This document shows positions 48,380-56,045 of a stretch of DNA of 64,000 nucleotides, in pieces. The position numbers were made by a program, and so were the translations under genes. Source of the DNA: the human T2T-CHM13v2.0 reference genome, Homo sapiens; assembly GCF_009914755.1 (NCBI RefSeq), contig NC_060932.1, one strand, 5' to 3'. Numbering within the stretch: the stretch's first letter is position 1; every line of letters starts with the position of its first letter. The notes beneath the pieces were generated by a model. That model did no database searches. It saw only the letters and a list, made by a program, of their open reading frames with translations, and was not told where the DNA came from.

Positions 48380-51330
<2,951 letters not shown>

Positions 51331-51377
51331 AGATATGGGAAAAGGGCAACTTTTTTTTTTTTTTTTTTTTTTTTTGA

Positions 51378-51536
<159 letters not shown>

Positions 51537-52115
51537 TAGTAGAGACAGGGTTTCACTGTGCTGTCATGCTGGTCTCCAACTCCTGACCTCAAGTGATCCA
51601 CCTGCCTCGGCCTCCCAAAGTGCTGGGATTACAGGCATGAGCCACTGCTCCCGGCCAAAAGGGCAACTTTTCAAGGCTACTGGTGGAACTGGGCACGGTG
51701 GCTCATGCCTATAATCCCAGCCCTTTAGGAGGCCGATGTGGGAGTATCGCTTGAGCCCAGGATTTGAAGACCAGCCTGGGCAACAGGGAGACCAAGTCTC
51801 TATTAAAAGAAAAATAATTAAAGTAAATAAATACGACAAACAGGCTGGGCACGGTGGCTCACGACTGTAATCCTAGCTCTTTGGGAGGCCGAGGTGGATG
51901 GATTGCCTGAGCTCAGGAGTTCAGACCAGCCTGGGCAACACCGTGAAACCCCATCTCTACTAAAATACAAAAAACTAGCCGGGCGTGGTGGCACACGCCT
52001 GTAGTCCCAGCTACTAGGGAGGCTGAGGCAGGACCCACTAGAACCCGGGAGGCGGAGGTTGCAGTGAGCCGAGATCAGGCCACTGCACTCCAGCCTGGGC
52101 GACAGAGTGAGTCTC

Positions 52116-52163
<48 letters not shown>
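52116..52163 (+). repeat. (AAT)n microsatellite derived from an Alu tail
   Basis: Pure taataataa run directly after the Alu 3' end. Confidence 0.95.
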
Positions 52164-52164
<1 letters not shown>

Positions 52165-52519
52165 TACAACAGACAAACAAACACAAATCCCGTCTATTCC
52201 ACAGCTAAGAGGGTTTCCAGTTTCAACATTGTCCCTGTTGTCCCTCCTGTCCTGATCACAGACCCCCATCACTGGTGACCCCAGAGTGATCCCAAATGCT
52301 GCCCCAGGTGACGTGCTGGTGGCCTGAGGCAAAATGTCTGTGTCACACTTCTTCTCCTCCTTCTTCTTCTTTCTTCCTAGAGACGGGATCTCACCATCTT
52401 GCCCAGGCTGGTCTCCTAACTCCTGGGCTCAAGCGAGCCTCCCACCTTGGCCTCCCGAGTAGCTGGGACCTACTGAGTCACACTTGTAGTCACATCCTTT
52501 TCCTTTCTCCAACCCACTG

Positions 52520-53560
52520 GTTAATCATGAAAGGCTCTTCTGATTGGCTGCCTCCTGGCAGTAGTGCCTCAGCGCGACGGTTCGGGAGCAAATAAATAAT
52601 TCCCGCTGGGAAGCTGTTTCTCAGACAGGAGCAGCGACACCCCTGCCACGCCTGCCGCCTGGAGTTGAGTGGGGTAAGCACGCCGGCCTCCAGGAATCGA
52701 CGGTGCCACGTGGTTCTTCTTGCACTTCTCTTCTTCTCCAGTTTCAGGGGACACCGTGGGGTGTGCGAGCCCGGGGGAGCGCAGGGAAGGGCGGGTTGGG
52801 CTGCAGGTGGGAATGTGCGGTCCTTCTGCGCCCTCAACAGAGCTTCCTTCCTTTTTGCCAAGGTCCCCGTGCCGCCTTCAGCGCGCCTCCTTATGCACCT
52901 CTACCTCTGCTGCAGCGTACCTCTTCCGCAGCCCTAGCGGCCTCCCCGAGGGGCGCCGCGGCCTCGGCTGTCCCTCCCCTGCCTGGCACGACCACCTGAC
53001 CCCCAGCGACCCAAGAAGCAAGTTGTGTTTGCAGACGCAAAGGGGCTGTCGTTGGTATCGGTGCACTGGTTTGAAGCCACTGCGGGCACAGCCTGAAGAG
53101 GGCCGGTGTCCCGCGTGCAGCCTCCCCGGCCCGGCCTCCTCCTGCTGCAGAACCGCCCCCCACGCCCGGGCTGCTGCGCCCCAGGAGGGACTAGCGGGTA
53201 TTCAGGGATGCCCGCACTCTCGGGGGCGAGCCTGCAGCTGTGTGCCCTGTAGGGGCTTCCTGCGGGGCACCGTGAGCGCAGGTGGGGACAAGCGGGCGGT
53301 GCAGATGCGCACCCCCTGGATGCCTGGGGCTCCTTCCAACAAGAGCCCTGTGTTGGAATGCCGGGTCCCCGCCGAGGTGAGAGGGTCGGCTTCGCCTTCC
53401 AGGTGGTGTTGCCGCCGAGTACCCTGGCCCCGCGGGCCACCGTCCAGTTCTGCTTCTCTTTAGAGCGTGCTCAGCGGCCTTTCGGGGACAGTAATCAAAG
53501 GCAAAACTACAGCTGGGTGCCGGGTTCGCCGTCCTGCTCATCAGAATGAAGCCAGGCTCT
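52520..53560. promoter_or_regulatory. Intergenic CpG-rich island covering the PPP1R3-like relic and its candidate promoter
   Basis: Many CpGs and high GC. ATTGG 52543-52547, AT-rich AAATAAATAAT ~52590, donor GGG|GTAAGC at 52674, pyrimidine tract plus AAG acceptor ending 52862. Confidence 0.65.
52863..53549 (+). pseudogene. Decayed PPP1R3C/PPP1R3B-like gene (PP1 glycogen-targeting subunit; RVxF motif + CBM21 domain)
   Basis: Manual translation gives family motifs in the correct order: MHLYLCCS (52893), LPCLA, KKQVVFADAKGLSLVSVHWFE (53013-53075), PRRD*RVFR (53180-53206), SLQLCAL* (53229-53252), LRGTVSAGGDKRAVQMRT (53260-53313), and [68 protein letters not shown] (from 53316; stop 53547-53549). 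It has at least 4 internal stops and several frameshifts. Compared with recalled PPP1R3C/B sequences. Confidence 0.85.
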
Positions 53561-53845
53561 GTGAGGGCGCACAGACAGACAGGCTGAGGCCTCTGCGCCT
53601 GCCTTTTCCACCTGGGCAAAGCGTGATTTCTTGTCCAGGACGCGCGTGTTTCCCATGTCGGGGAACTTTGCTCAATCTGTTTTCTTGCTCCTGAATTCAT
53701 AATGGGGAAACAGGACTGATTCAACTCCTAGTCCCTGCAGAAGGCCTCGAATGCCTTGCATTCTTCTCTCACTTCCTGACTACAAGGGATGAGGTTTTGC
53801 TTTAGGAAGATTCTGGGAATGGAGTCGGGAAACCGAAGAAATGCA

Positions 53846-53851
53846 AATAAA
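53846..53851 (+). terminator. Candidate poly(A) signal of the PPP1R3-like relic
   Basis: AATAAA ~300 nt after the relic's stop codon, followed by a GT-rich tract at ~53902-53945. Confidence 0.45.
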
Positions 53852-54246
53852 GTATTTATATGTAATTATTGAAAGGGCTTAGCAGAGAGTGTCTAAGGAC
53901 CGTGGGTGGTGTGTGCGTGCGCATGTGTGTATGTTTGTGTGTGTATTGCAGAGGTTGGGGAGGGGTTCTTTACGTTAAAGATGGGAGAGAGAACTTTGCC
54001 CTTCTACTTTCCTCTCCATCTAGGAAGGGCTACTTTCCTGGTAACTTGAAATAGTCAGGCTTATTCCACTTTTGCCAAAAGGAATGTTCATTAAAGCATC
54101 TTCAACAGTTGATATAATAAACACTTTTTCTCCCTCTTCATCATATAAAAGTGTGGGGAGACTCTGTCTCTGTTCATTTCAAAATATGGGTACTTTTAAA
54201 AACACTTATTTTCAGTAGTTTAGTACACTTTAATTTTTAATTTTAA

Positions 54247-54624
<378 letters not shown>

Positions 54625-56045
54625 TGATCCTCCCACCTTGGCCTCCCAAAGTGCTGGGATTACAGGCGTGAGCCAACACACCCGGCTGCTACTACTTCTT
54701 TGAGTGCAATTTACCTAGACCCAGAAACCTGACCTTTGCCCCCACGGCCCCCATAGCTCCCCATTATGTATTGATGGTCCGGTATTGAAAGCATCCACTG
54801 AAGTGTTTGCCTCCCCCAGGATGGGAGAAAGTGAGGACAAGTTGGCCTTGGACACAGCCGGCCGCAGGCTGGCCACCCCCCTGGAGCTCAGAACATATGG
54901 ATTAGAATAATATATGTGAATGTGTGCCAAGTATGCCTCTAGCTTCAATTTACAGTGTTCTGAGAGCTTTAGATGTTGGAAGGCTTTAACCTCTTTTCAG
55001 GGACTCTTCATTCTTCGATTATTATTCATAGATGACAAATTTTAAATAAAAGATTTCTTTTTGTACACTTTTATCTCTTCTGATACTTGATTTCTTGGAC
55101 TACATTTTTTATGCCAATGGCAGGTATTGAGGTTGAACAAGCAACATTCACTTTATTTTTTCTTTCTTTCTTTCTTTTTTTTTTTTTTTTTGAGACAGAA
55201 TCTTGCTCTGTCACCCAGGCTGGAGCGCAATGGCACTATCCTGGCTCACTGCAACCTCTGCCTCACGGGTAAGCGATTCTCCTCCCTCAGCCTCCCGAGT
55301 AGCAGGGATTACAGGTGCCTGCCACCATGCCCAGCTAATTTTTGTATTTTTAGTAGAGACGGGGTTTCACCATGTTGGCCAGGCTGGTCATGAACTCCTG
55401 ACCTCAAGTGATCCACCCAACCTTGGCCTTCCAAAGTGCTGTGATTACAGGCATGAGTCACCCCAACCGGCCACTTCATTTTTTTCCCTAAAGGGCCTGC
55501 CCCACCTGACTCTCGAACAAAACAGCCAGGGTGCCCTGCCAGGTGGTTAACAGGGTAAAGGCAGAAGCAGCCAAACACACAGGCTTCCAGGAACAGTGTG
55601 GACAGAGCTGCAGCTTCCTCATCTGATAATGGGAGCTATTGCAATCGCTACTGTTTCCCTCTTGCCTTCTAGAAGGCCTGACTCCATTAAGGGTTGATCA
55701 TGAATAGGGCAGGTGGACTTATAGAGCATGCTGTCAGAGTTGGGGGTTGCTTTCAAATTCAAGCTAGTAAAAATCAACAGAAAAGATGAGTAGCCAGCTG
55801 TAGAAGTGACGTACTCCTAAGATGTGTGGTAATGTATTTCTAATGACATTAGAGTTTCTGAAATCCATCTCATCATCATGGCCTAGCACTAGAAAGGGGA
55901 AGTGCTGGGAGACCACGTGGACCAGGCGTCACATTTAGAGAGGGTCTGGGACCTAGACTTTTGATACTATCTCCAAATTAAGTTACACATACAACTACAG
56001 AGAGAACTAACAGGATTGAAAAAAGATGCTGCTCAGCTGGGCTCA

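What the first reader, a model, noticed from the sequence alone, without database searches (positions are those of the whole stretch)
52863..53549. Hidden relic of a PPP1R3C-like PP1 glycogen-targeting gene (candidate unitary pseudogene)
Seen: translation across three frames gives an ordered motif series that no single ORF shows. Comparisons use recalled human PPP1R3C/B sequences. KKQVVFADAKGLSLVSVHWF vs PPP1R3C [20 protein letters not shown] (RVxF PP1-docking motif). PRRD*RVFR vs PSTDYLSFR. SLQLCAL* vs CLENCSLQ. LRGTV..DKRAVQMRT/LDAW vs [50 protein letters not shown] vs FSFAIDLPP..IEFCIS..FWDNNDGQNY (CBM21). Stops at 52935, 53094, 53192 and 53250, frameshifts, and W->G in the WDNN motif indicate loss of function. 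Inference: the divergence is too high for a recent retrocopy, and there is no poly(A) tail or TSD. This suggests an ancient paralog that died in place between GINS4 and the next gene. I recall a ppp1r3c2 paralog in fish/amphibians; that link is unverified.
Basis: partly seen in the sequence, partly recalled or inferred. Interest (0 to 1): 0.92.

Follow-up and report, generated by a model that had tools for sequence, protein, structure and literature searches.

The report
Dead eighth PP1 glycogen-targeting gene
Between GINS4 and GPAT4 the human genome carries the broken remains of an eighth glycogen-targeting subunit gene of protein phosphatase 1, a gene that is still intact from sharks to marsupials, so textbook "seven PPP1R3 genes" describes what humans kept, not what vertebrates had.

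Summary
Window 52863-53549 (+) contains, in order and spread over three frames, an RVxF PP1-docking motif and a CBM21 glycogen-binding domain, both matching PPP1R3C best among solved structures. A frameshift-aware alignment scores 284 against a marsupial protein, against a maximum of 54 in 100 shuffles.

The relic is not a decayed copy of PPP1R3C. Its nearest relatives are intact ~230-aa "PPP1R3C-like" proteins found in 10 marsupial species (45% identity). Together they sit inside a vertebrate-wide sister family of PPP1R3C, annotated "3C-B-like", at the place where mammals belong. Forcing the relic into the 3C clade is rejected (AU p 0.017).

A kiwi member of that family is filed by NCBI as an isoform of GINS4 (SLD5). 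This indicates the same neighbourhood in a bird.

The human copy has at least two in-frame stops, at least five frameshifts and a lost Trp in WDNN. It is single-copy.

Verdict: a unitary pseudogene, apparently undescribed. It survives as a CpG island inside a predicted lncRNA exon. Direct synteny in other genomes could not be tested.

The parts
52863..52977 (+). N-terminal segment of the relic, read in frame 1 (..LCTSTSAAAYLFRSPSGLP..). It corresponds to the family's (M)PVDxAxRLCLSHSPP motif. The segment starts at the acceptor used by lncRNA exon 3.
   Evidence: Frameshift-aware alignments to P0123 (from 52891) and to P0122 (52921-52977, LFRSPSGLP against RLCRSPSAPP). The exon start 52863 comes from the hub's RefSeq table. 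A frameshift between 52944 and 52977 leads into frame 3.
52978..53072 (+). PP1-docking region in frame 3: PCLARPPDPQRPKKQVVFADAKGLSLVSVHWF. The RVxF core KQVVF lies at 53016-53030.
   Evidence: ORF; best PDB hit is the PPP1R3C peptide 7qfb_B, E 4.4e-4; tblastn with human 3C gives 70% over 20 aa, E 5.2e-4. Koala P0127 also reads KKQVVFAD.
53073..53182 (+). Decayed proline-rich linker. It holds a TGA at 53094-53096 in frame 3 and at least one frameshift, placed at 53072, 53084 or 53123 depending on the guide protein.
   Evidence: three guide proteins give three different placements. One search shows the stop.
53183..53215 (+). Frame-2 piece PRRD*RVFRDAR, the family's QP(S/L)xDYxxFR block. TAG at 53192-53194 replaces the conserved Tyr.
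   Evidence: stop aligned to Y of P0123; stop aligned to Y of kiwi P0161..
53223..53255 (+). Frame-3 piece GASLQLCAL*G, the VCLExC block. TAG at 53250-53252, then a frameshift after 53255.
53256..53319 (+). Frame-1 piece GFLRGTVSAGGDKRAVQMRTPW, the first strands of CBM21 (LxGTVxVxNxxYEKxVxxRITF). It carries a 2-codon deletion and is followed by a frameshift after 53319.
   Evidence: the same placement is found with all three marsupial guides. (P0122).
53316..53549 (+). Frame-3 piece [44 protein letters not shown]..CSSE, ending in TGA. This is the C-terminal two thirds of CBM21. Trp of WDNN has become Gly. At 53414-53437 the sequence reads PGPAG in another frame, as in marsupials; the unnamed P0122 instead shares the frame-3 reading APR.
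   Evidence: CBM_21 positions 42-111 of 113. PPP1R3C 7qf7; best library hits P0122 and P0123, E 6e-9 and 7e-9..
52674..52862 (+). Intron of the predicted lncRNA LOC124901939 (donor GGG|GTAAGC, acceptor TTTTTGCCAAG|G). It may be the ancestral intron 1 of the dead gene, because it lies just upstream of the N-terminal motif, where PPP1R3C has its phase-2 intron after MSCT. Unproven.
   Evidence: Hub RefSeq table and (splice sites). (human 3C exon 1-intron-exon 2 structure). Nucleotide similarity to 3C at both junctions is not significant (905 of 2000 and 149 of 2000 shuffles reach the observed score).
52550..53600 (.). CpG island covering the relic and about 300 bases upstream: GC 0.657, CpG observed/expected 0.66 over 1051 bases. 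It overlaps the RefSeq 'enhancer' at 53208-53970.
   Evidence: The enhancer comes from the hub table.
50975..51074 (+). 100-base secondary copy of 52976-53075 (the RVxF segment), 91% identical. It is flanked by ATATCATTAA on both sides (the right-hand copy after 8 extra bases). The last exon-1 base of the lncRNA (51067) and its GT donor lie inside it.
   Evidence: 91 of 100 identical; the only other match in the whole genome. (flanks). CpG o/e 0.26 against 0.57 in the source.

Best explanation
This is a unitary pseudogene. It is the human remnant of an eighth PP1 glycogen-targeting subunit gene. That gene is the sister paralogue of PPP1R3C, annotated in other vertebrates as 'PPP1R3C-B-like' or 'PPP1R3C-like', and possibly the gene called ppp1r3c2 in fish.

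The intact protein has the family's usual layout. An N-terminal RVxF motif docks the PP1 catalytic subunit, and a CBM21 domain binds glycogen. By homology this brings PP1 to glycogen synthase and phosphorylase.

The paralogue arose before sharks and bony vertebrates split. It persists in cartilaginous and ray-finned fish, lungfish, a salamander, reptiles, birds and marsupials. In therian mammals it evolved fast and became short (about 230 aa). On the lineage to humans it was inactivated where it lay, downstream of GINS4 on the same strand.

In human it can make no functional subunit. Its sequence survives as a CpG island that is spliced into a predicted lncRNA and overlaps an annotated enhancer.

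Shown here: the homology, the order of motifs, the lesions, the single-copy status and the phylogenetic position. Inferred: descent in place (synteny), the time of death, and any present regulatory role.
For: 1. Homology and order. RVxF and CBM21 pieces lie in the right order on one strand. The frameshift-aware score is 284 against Gracilinanus P0128, with reversed-protein controls of 32-47 and shuffle mean 36.5, max 54, n=100.

2. Nearest relatives are not 3C.
- The exhaustive search of 1.84 billion representatives with the 98-aa ORF gave 3 hits: P0122, P0123 and P0124.
- P0123 is 'PPP1R3C-like [Macrotis lagotis]'. Its family has 11 intact marsupial proteins from 10 species among the 14 hits.
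- Alignment scores of the relic: 7 of these 11 marsupial proteins scored, 218-284; true 3C 105-145; non-mammalian 3C-B-like 95-143.
- Identity to P0123 is 95 of 209.

3. Phylogeny.
- Careful ML tree, 64 rows: relic + P0122 + 11 marsupial rows form a clade at 100/99. It sits inside the tetrapod 3C-B-like set at 98/86. The 3C-B-like family follows the species tree from sharks upward and is separate from 3C at 96/97.
- An unguided raw frame-3 translation is placed the same way.
- With intact rows only, marsupials fall inside the tetrapod 3C-B-like set at 96/88.
- AU test: relic held with 3C, p 0.017. All 13 therian rows held with 3C, p 0.037.
- Ten species carry both genes.

4. Neighbourhood. The kiwi family member P0161 is named 'DNA replication complex GINS protein SLD5 isoform X1'. 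It contains only CBM_21 and CBM53 and no SLD5 domain. The likely reason is that its gene model was merged with the adjacent same-strand GINS4.

5. Unitary status. The whole-genome searches find no other copy.

6. Lesions. TAG at the conserved Tyr (53192), TAG at 53250, TGA at 53094, frameshifts near 52944-52977, 53072-53123, 53191-53218, 53255 and 53319, and W to G in WDNN.
Against: - Gene order around the marsupial, bird or fish genes was not read. No vertebrate genome other than the human one was available, so synteny rests on one record's name.
- The AU test for the whole therian clade is only marginal (p 0.037), and the therian stem branch is long (0.59).
- A count of columns that separate tetrapod 3C from tetrapod 3C-B-like does not favour the relic's membership. 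At threshold 0.9 there are 10 columns: 1 3C-B-like state, 4 3C states, 3 other, 2 gap. At 0.75 there are 31 columns: 2, 6, 13 and 10. The marsupial consensus gives 4 against 2 and 8 against 4 in favour of 3C-B-like. Many '3C states' are ancestral (the fish 3C-B-like consensus shows 13 3C states and 8 3C-B-like states), so the count has little power.
- The single-frame Pfam hit is below the curated cut-off.
- The relic row has an odd composition and a terminal branch of 1.54.
Confidence: 0.8

Rival explanations
1. An old retrocopy or other duplicate of PPP1R3C (or of the 3C-B-like gene) landed between GINS4 and GPAT4 in a therian ancestor. It evolved fast, stayed alive in marsupials and died in the human lineage. 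On this view it is a processed pseudogene, not the in-place orthologue of the sauropsid gene.
For: - Among human genes, PPP1R3C is the best match.
- Marsupial proteins are short and lack the C-terminal tail.
- The therian stem branch is long.
- The AU test on the therian clade is only p 0.037.
- The relic keeps several 3C-like or ancestral states, such as His in ..VHxF.
- Retention of an intron is not demonstrated.
Against: - ML trees place the clade inside tetrapod 3C-B-like, at the position expected for mammals (98/86; 96/88).
- The relic held with 3C is rejected at p 0.017.
- A real degenerate 3C copy (P0113) nests within marsupial 3C.
- No poly(A) run follows the AATAAA at 53846-53851. Age would erase such a run anyway.
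- The kiwi record ties the family to GINS4, which makes a chance landing at the same spot unlikely.
Confidence: 0.12
2. The region is still coding. The open 98-codon frame (53253-53549) or the open 261-codon frame 1 (52678-53463) would encode a short CBM21-like or novel protein from the lncRNA.
For: Both frames are open. The region is transcribed according to the predicted RefSeq model (hub table). CpG island status is retained.
Against: - The 98-aa ORF covers only positions 42-111 of CBM_21 and has lost the WDNN Trp.
- The frame-1 ORF has no Pfam match. It is homologous to the family only in two short stretches.
- GC-rich DNA gives long open frames by chance. Two 178-codon frames on the minus strand are also open and match nothing.
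- The orthologous locus of another organism (P0124) differs from human by nine frame changes.
Confidence: 0.03
3. The match is a chance resemblance in GC-rich DNA and no gene was ever here.
For: Individual single-frame hits are weak (E about 1e-4).
Against: - Two independent motifs lie in the correct order.
- The score of 284 compares with a maximum of 54 in 100 shuffles.
- Identity to a marsupial protein is 45% over 209 residues.
- Clade support is 100/99.
Confidence: 0.01

Closest known systems
[quoted passage not shown] Macrotis lagotis P0123, Gracilinanus agilis P0128; 227-253 aa)
   Same: Nearest intact relatives. Identity is 95 of 209 in a frameshift-aware alignment. Shared blocks include PCLxRxPxxxxxKKxVVFAD, FLxGTV, FxFQVxLP, (T)xQFCFS and NNQGxNY. 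They form a 100/99 clade with the relic.
   Different: They are intact, with a full CBM_21 (87 bits for P0123). The human copy has stops and frameshifts. Their chromosomal position was not checked.
Vertebrate 'PPP1R3C-B-like / PR3CB' family (birds, turtles, tuatara, squamates, Pleurodeles, lungfish, bichir, gar, sharks and rays, teleosts)
   Same: The family that contains the therian clade in the trees. Same architecture of RVxF plus CBM21. The kiwi member is filed under the GINS4 gene.
   Different: Longer (about 285-345 aa), with a C-terminal ..LSHLQTWRxxExxAPYW tail that marsupials and the relic lack. Only 30-33% identical to the relic's reading (64 of 196 for kiwi P0161).
Human PPP1R3C (PTG), chr10
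   Same: Best human paralogue and best solved-structure match for both the RVxF and the CBM21 pieces. Same order of motifs.
   Different: A separate clade since before the shark-bony vertebrate split. Alignment score 105 against 284 for marsupial 3C-like. 3C is intact and has a long C-terminal tail.
Loss of PPP1R3E in the common vampire bat (PMC8956264; passages read)
   Same: A lineage-specific inactivation of a PP1 glycogen-targeting subunit in a mammal. That paper states that PP1's glycogen-targeting subunit is encoded by seven genes, PPP1R3A to PPP1R3G.
   Different: That loss is recent, species-specific and tied to diet. This one is old, affects a family member outside the seven, and has no known phenotype.
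Zebrafish ppp1r3c2a (named in PMC12819173; passage read)
   Different: I obtained no sequence under that name, so whether it belongs to the 3C-B-like clade is untested.

Membership tests
PPP1R3 PP1 glycogen-targeting subunits | RVxF-type PP1-docking motif N-terminal to the carbohydrate-binding domain | tested here: met
   KKQVVFAD at 53013-53036. The best PDB match is the PPP1R3C docking peptide 7qfb_B, E 4.4e-4. It lies about 280 bases upstream of the CBM21 pieces.
PPP1R3 PP1 glycogen-targeting subunits | CBM21 domain (Pfam PF03370) | tested here: inconclusive
   The single-frame ORF matches profile positions 42-111 of 113 at 22.7 bits, below the curated 28.9. Read across frames, the whole domain aligns to marsupial proteins. 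The stitched reading could not be sent to Pfam.
PPP1R3 PP1 glycogen-targeting subunits | Conserved WDNNxGxNY block at the end of CBM21 (its role as a substrate or glycogen contact is recalled, not tested) | tested here: not met
   The relic reads [10 protein letters not shown], with Trp replaced by Gly and Gly replaced by Arg.
PPP1R3 PP1 glycogen-targeting subunits | Uninterrupted reading frame (a working gene) | tested here: not met
   TAG at 53192, TAG at 53250, TGA at 53094, and at least five frame changes.
Vertebrate PPP1R3C-B-like (3C-like) orthologue group | Falls inside the group in a phylogeny, apart from PPP1R3C | tested here: met
   100/99 with marsupials, 98/86 within the tetrapod set; an unguided reading is placed the same way. 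AU p 0.017 against 3C; marsupials alone at 96/88. Caveats: p 0.037; the column count has low power and does not favour the relic.
Vertebrate PPP1R3C-B-like (3C-like) orthologue group | Same chromosomal neighbourhood (next to GINS4) | tested here: inconclusive
   The only evidence is the NCBI/UniRef name of kiwi P0161, 'GINS protein SLD5 isoform X1'. That protein carries CBM_21 and no SLD5 domain. No non-human genome could be read.
Unitary pseudogene | No functional copy of the same gene elsewhere in the genome, and a functional orthologue in other species | tested here: met
   The PF03370 search of the human genome finds the 7 other family genes plus this locus. The DNA search finds only this locus and its 100-base fragment. 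Intact marsupial proteins carry a full CBM_21. Their function is assumed from intactness.
Processed pseudogene (retrocopy) | Nests within the parent gene's recent clade; poly(A) tract and target-site duplications; no introns | tested here: not met
   It does not nest in mammalian 3C. No A-run follows AATAAA at 53846-53851. Intron retention is undecided. Age could have erased the poly(A) tract and duplications, so only the phylogenetic criterion carries weight.

The most novel reading that the evidence does not exclude
The gene did not simply decay.

First, its CpG island has stayed unmethylated in the germline for tens of millions of years after the coding function was lost. CpG o/e is 0.66 over 1 kb, whereas the 100-base copy 1.9 kb upstream has fallen to 0.26, and 3 of the 9 differences between the copies are CpG to TpG. 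On this reading the island was taken over as a promoter or enhancer and as a spliced lncRNA exon acting on the GINS4-GPAT4 neighbourhood.

Second, the loss may not date to the eutherian stem. An unnamed uninterrupted 179-codon relative (P0122) groups with the human relic rather than with marsupials (94/87). Some lineages closer to humans than marsupials may therefore still make this eighth subunit, and its loss could track metabolic differences among mammals.
Probability: 0.25. Interest if true: 0.65.

Novelty: new member of a known kind. Interest (0 to 1): 0.5.

Why it matters
Reviews and comparative studies count seven PP1 glycogen-targeting subunits, PPP1R3A to PPP1R3G (for example PMC8956264, passage read).

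The evidence here points to an eighth, ancient member. It is the sister of PPP1R3C/PTG and is intact from sharks to marsupials. The human genome keeps only its wreck, and the RefSeq table supplied with the finding shows it as a lncRNA, not as a pseudogene.

This matters in three modest ways.
- It corrects the family's evolutionary history and the set of genes to consider when glycogen regulation is compared between mammals, birds and fish.
- It offers a datable gene loss on the human lineage in a pathway linked to Lafora disease and to insulin action (recalled).
- It explains an orphan CpG island, lncRNA exon and enhancer between GINS4 and GPAT4.

It does not reveal a new mechanism.

Tried and rejected
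- Literature. These searches found no account of this locus or of the family's eighth member:
  - 'PPP1R3' + pseudogene + paralog
  - 'ppp1r3c2'
  - five terms, 'PPP1R3', 'glycogen targeting', phylogenetic, vertebrates, 'gene loss', at least four required
  - 'unitary pseudogene' + PPP1R3, 0 papers
  - the fish gene names
  - gene extinction in early mammals
  - GINS4 + GPAT4 + synteny, 0 papers
  - PPP1R3C + ohnolog, 0 papers
  - five terms, 'PPP1R3', CBM21, evolution, vertebrate, subfamily, at least four required
- PMC4797157 mentions only PPP1R35. PMC3603308 mentions only the TNKS2-PPP1R3C-HECTD2 neighbourhood.
- The main text of PMC3296468 (gene losses on the eutherian stem) has no PPP1R3, 'phosphatase 1', glycogen or GINS4.
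- Nucleotide similarity between the relic's putative exon-1 end or acceptor and those of human PPP1R3C is not significant (905 of 2000 and 149 of 2000 shuffles reach the observed score). I therefore do not claim a conserved intron.
- N-terminal extensions of long bird and turtle models (P0156, P0157, P0191) matched the GC-rich GINS4 and GPAT4 promoter regions of the window (best E 8.6e-7). These are low-complexity, composition-driven matches obtained with composition correction switched off. I rejected them as synteny evidence.
- The diagnostic-column count had too few columns and mostly ancestral states to decide.
- The protein-atlas search on P0122 gave only the family level (CBM_21, Chordata) and no finer origin.
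- Minus-strand ORFs over the relic have no Pfam match. There is no Rfam family in 50500-55200.
- The list omitted the marsupial rows used in the query profile, because only 8000 candidates were scored. The absence of eutherian names from that list is therefore weak evidence. One search scored all 745 candidates and also shows none.
Full report
WHAT IS IN THE SEQUENCE

The stretch 52863-53549 on the + strand is GC-rich and is not listed among the masked repeats in the hub table.

Four consecutive ORFs lie in one frame (frame 3) and are separated only by stops at 52935, 53094 and 53250. These ORFs are 52596-52937, 52938-53096, 53097-53252 and 53253-53549. Two further pieces lie in frame 2 (PRRD*RVFR, with TAG at 53192) and in frame 1 (FLRGTV..DKRAVQMRT).

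- The RVxF piece matches the PPP1R3C docking peptide in the PDB (7qfb_B, E 4.4e-4; 3 hits in all, the others being PPP1R3C 7qm2 and PPP1R3B 5zt0).
- The last ORF matches PPP1R3C 7qf7_A (E 8.1e-4; 4 hits in all, the others being PPP1R3C 7qm2_B, PPP1R3A and PPP1R3B).
- The last ORF also matches Pfam CBM_21 positions 42-111 of 113 (E 1.2e-4, 22.7 bits, under the curated 28.9). The other 5 of 6 pieces gave no real family.
- A search of the whole human assembly with PF03370 gives 8 matches. Seven are stop-free and above the cut-off. I label these PPP1R3B, C, A, D, G, F and E from their translations. Only the 3C label is confirmed by named hits; the others are recalled. The eighth match is this locus.

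SIGNIFICANCE

I wrote a local protein-to-DNA alignment that allows frameshifts.
- Window 52700-53650 scores 105 against human PPP1R3C. The reversed protein and the reverse-complement DNA each score 32.
- In 100 dinucleotide-preserving shuffles the mean is 34.9, sd 4.3, max 49.

THE NEAREST RELATIVES ARE NOT PPP1R3C

- An exhaustive HMMER search of 1.84 billion cluster representatives with the 98-aa ORF returned three proteins: P0122 (179 aa, E 6e-9), P0123 (227 aa, E 7e-9) and P0124 (188 aa, E 8e-4).
[quoted passage not shown] A search with it gave 14 proteins: 11 intact marsupial proteins of 227-253 aa from 10 species, one bird '3C-B-like' protein (P0135) and two unnamed ones.
- Frameshift-aware scores of the relic are as follows:
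  - 7 of the 11 marsupial proteins scored: 218-284
  - P0122: 214
  - P0124: 192
  - true 3C from six vertebrates: 105-145
  - non-mammalian 3C-B-like proteins: 95-143
  - reversed-protein controls: 32-47
- For P0128 the score is 284, against shuffle mean 36.5, sd 4.6 and max 54.
- The alignment to P0123 covers window 52891-53546 and protein residues 8-225 of 227, with 95 of 209 positions identical.

A VERTEBRATE-WIDE SISTER FAMILY OF PPP1R3C

- A profile search returned 122 proteins at E up to 0.001, of which 120 are listed. Only 8000 candidates were scored. The named rows are a family called 'PPP1R3C-B-like', '3C-like' or 'PR3CB'. It occurs in many birds, turtles, tuatara, squamates, Pleurodeles, lungfish, bichir, gar, sharks, rays and teleosts.
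- True PPP1R3C orthologues from mammals to sharks came (478 hits, the best 120 listed).
- Ten species have both genes: Sceloporus, Anolis, Sphenodon, Carettochelys, gar, Pristis, Hemitrygon, lungfish, Sminthopsis and Gracilinanus.

TREES

The careful ML tree has 64 rows and 315 columns, under LG+C20+F+G4.
- The relic groups with P0122 (94/87).
- These two plus the 11 marsupial proteins form a clade (100/99).
- That clade lies within the tetrapod 3C-B-like rows (26 rows, 98/86).
- The 3C-B-like family runs sharks, then ray-fins, then lungfish, then tetrapods, as the species tree does.
- PPP1R3C is a separate clade (96/97).

Further checks:
- The relic row was stitched along the P0123 alignment, which could bias it. 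An unguided raw frame-3 translation gave the same 13-row clade (SH-aLRT 99, quick tree).
- With the two degenerate or unnamed rows removed, the marsupial clade (100/100) lies in the tetrapod 3C-B-like set (24 rows, 96/88). It then lies within sarcopterygians (95/84), bony vertebrates (99/94) and the whole family (97/94).
- AU tests: the relic held with the 22 '3C' rows costs 23.9 log-likelihood units, p 0.017. All 13 therian rows held with 3C cost 15.8 units, p 0.037, which is marginal.
- P0113 serves as a positive control. It is a degenerate Gracilinanus '3C-like' protein, 70% identical to human 3C. It nests inside marsupial 3C, which is what a copy of 3C looks like.

Against my reading:
- The count of columns that separate tetrapod 3C from tetrapod 3C-B-like is small. 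It does not favour the relic (1 against 4 of 10 columns; 2 against 6 of 31). It does favour the marsupial consensus (4 against 2; 8 against 4).
- Many '3C' states are ancestral, so I give this count little weight.
- treekit warns of the relic's long branch (1.54) and odd composition.

NEIGHBOURHOOD

No non-human vertebrate genome could be read. One indirect piece of evidence exists.
- Family member P0161 of the kiwi Apteryx rowi is 307 aa and 81% identical to P0135.
- NCBI and UniRef name it 'DNA replication complex GINS protein SLD5 isoform X1'. SLD5 is GINS4.
- The protein contains CBM_21 and CBM53 and no SLD5 domain.
- The simplest reason for the name is that the annotation pipeline merged two adjacent genes on the same strand. 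This is my inference.
- In human the relic lies 22 kb downstream of GINS4 on the same strand (hub table).

From memory only: 8p11 (ANK1, NKX6-3) and 10q (ANK3, NKX6-2, PPP1R3C) are paralogous regions from the early vertebrate genome duplications. That would fit a 3C / 3C-B-like pair of that age. One search shows only that TNKS2-PPP1R3C-HECTD2 is an old neighbourhood.

LESIONS

- A frameshift between 52944 and 52977 takes the reading from frame 1 to frame 3.
- TGA at 53094 and at least one frameshift lie in the poorly conserved linker. The placement varies with the guide protein (53072, 53084 or 53123).
- TAG at 53192-53194 stands exactly where the family has the Tyr of QPxxDY.
- A frameshift lies between 53191 and 53218.
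- TAG at 53250-53252.
- Frameshifts after 53255 and 53319.
- A two-codon deletion lies in the first CBM21 strands.
- Trp to Gly in WDNN.
- At 53414-53437 the marsupial PGPAG appears in another frame. P0122 reads APR as the human frame 3 does, so this pair of shifts may predate the death of the gene.
- With this many indels in about 650 bases, inactivation is probably tens of millions of years old. This is a rough inference from typical neutral indel rates, not a computed date.

OTHER ORGANISMS

- P0124 is an unnamed ORF on a 2461-base contig with no Pfam match. It aligns to window 53150-53652, which runs 100 bases beyond the relic's stop. 77 of 164 positions are identical, there are nine relative frame changes, and it shares the derived FCFSLERA. 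I read it as an ORF call over the same dead locus in another animal.
- P0122 is an uninterrupted 179-codon frame with a full CBM_21 (93.9 bits), an internal deletion after RVVFAD, and the family's C-terminal ..GPYW. Its origin is unnamed, and an atlas look-up gave only 'Chordata, CBM_21'.

WHAT THE LOCUS IS NOW

- The relic is single-copy in the genome, apart from a 100-base copy of 52976-53075 at 50975-51074 (91 of 100 identical).
- The stretch 52550-53600 meets the usual CpG-island criteria: GC 0.657 and CpG o/e 0.66 over 1051 bases.
- The 100-base copy has o/e 0.26, and 3 of its 9 differences are CpG to TpG. This suggests that the relic, unlike its copy, has stayed unmethylated in the germline (inference).
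- According to the hub's RefSeq table the relic is the start of the last exon of the predicted lncRNA LOC124901939. The relic also overlaps an 'enhancer' feature at 53208-53970.
- The lncRNA intron 52674-52862 lies just upstream of the N-terminal motif. That is roughly where PPP1R3C has its phase-2 intron after MSCT.
- Nucleotide similarity at the two junctions is not significant, so an inherited intron remains a possibility only.
- No Rfam family and no minus-strand protein family are present.

KNOWN OR NEW

Nine literature searches found no description of this locus or of an eighth family member lost in humans.
- PMC8956264 (passages) speaks of seven genes, PPP1R3A to PPP1R3G, and reports a PPP1R3E loss in the vampire bat.
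- PMC12819173 (passage) names zebrafish ppp1r3c2a.
- The supplementary gene list of PMC3296468 could not be opened and might contain the gene.
- GENCODE and Ensembl could not be consulted.

VERDICT

Synteny rests on a single annotation clue.

This is a new member of a known kind, a unitary pseudogene. It is of moderate interest because it adds an eighth ancestral PP1 glycogen-targeting subunit to the human family history.

Noticed in passing
window 50975-51074: A 100-base copy of the relic's RVxF segment (52976-53075), 91% identical, still reading KKQVVFADAKGLLLASVHRF. It is flanked by ATATCATTAA on the left and, after 8 extra bases, on the right, like a small templated insertion. The predicted lncRNA's exon 1 ends inside it (51067, donor CAG|GT), and a T-to-A difference from the source creates the CAG.
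   Followed up: partly
window 52540-52599: A CCAAT-box-like CTGATTGGCT (52540-52549) lies 40 bases upstream of an AAATAAATAA (52590-52599), about 300 bases upstream of the relic's N-terminal segment. This could be the dead gene's core promoter. Bird and turtle N-terminally extended models also read ..RALIG.. (an ATTGG in frame), but that is too short a motif to count as homology.
   Followed up: partly
P0161 (Apteryx rowi): A public record named as GINS4/SLD5 'isoform X1' is in fact a complete PPP1R3C-B-like protein (CBM_21 and CBM53, no SLD5 domain). It looks like a merged gene model in the kiwi annotation.
   Followed up: partly
P0113 (Gracilinanus agilis '3C-like', 236 aa): A second, degenerate-looking copy of true PPP1R3C in a mouse opossum. 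The RVxF region reads KKKVVLAVSKSLSF and the end is truncated. It sits on a contig of the same length as the one holding that species' other 3C-like gene. It nests in marsupial 3C, so it is probably a young duplicate or retrocopy.
   Followed up: no
window 52381-52470: The 5' part of lncRNA exon 2 looks by eye like an Alu-derived fragment (..GGCTGGTCTCCTAACTCCTGGGCTCAAGCGAGCCTCCCACCTTGGCCTCCCGAGTAGCTGGGA..). The predicted transcript therefore seems to be stitched from an Alu piece, unique sequence and the dead gene. The Alu identification is recalled, not tested.
   Followed up: no
marsupial proteins P0129 and P0130 (Trichosurus vulpecula): The brushtail possum has two distinct intact 3C-like proteins on contigs of different length (445 Mb and 569 Mb). 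They are sisters in the tree (100/95), which suggests a recent duplication of this gene in that lineage.
   Followed up: no
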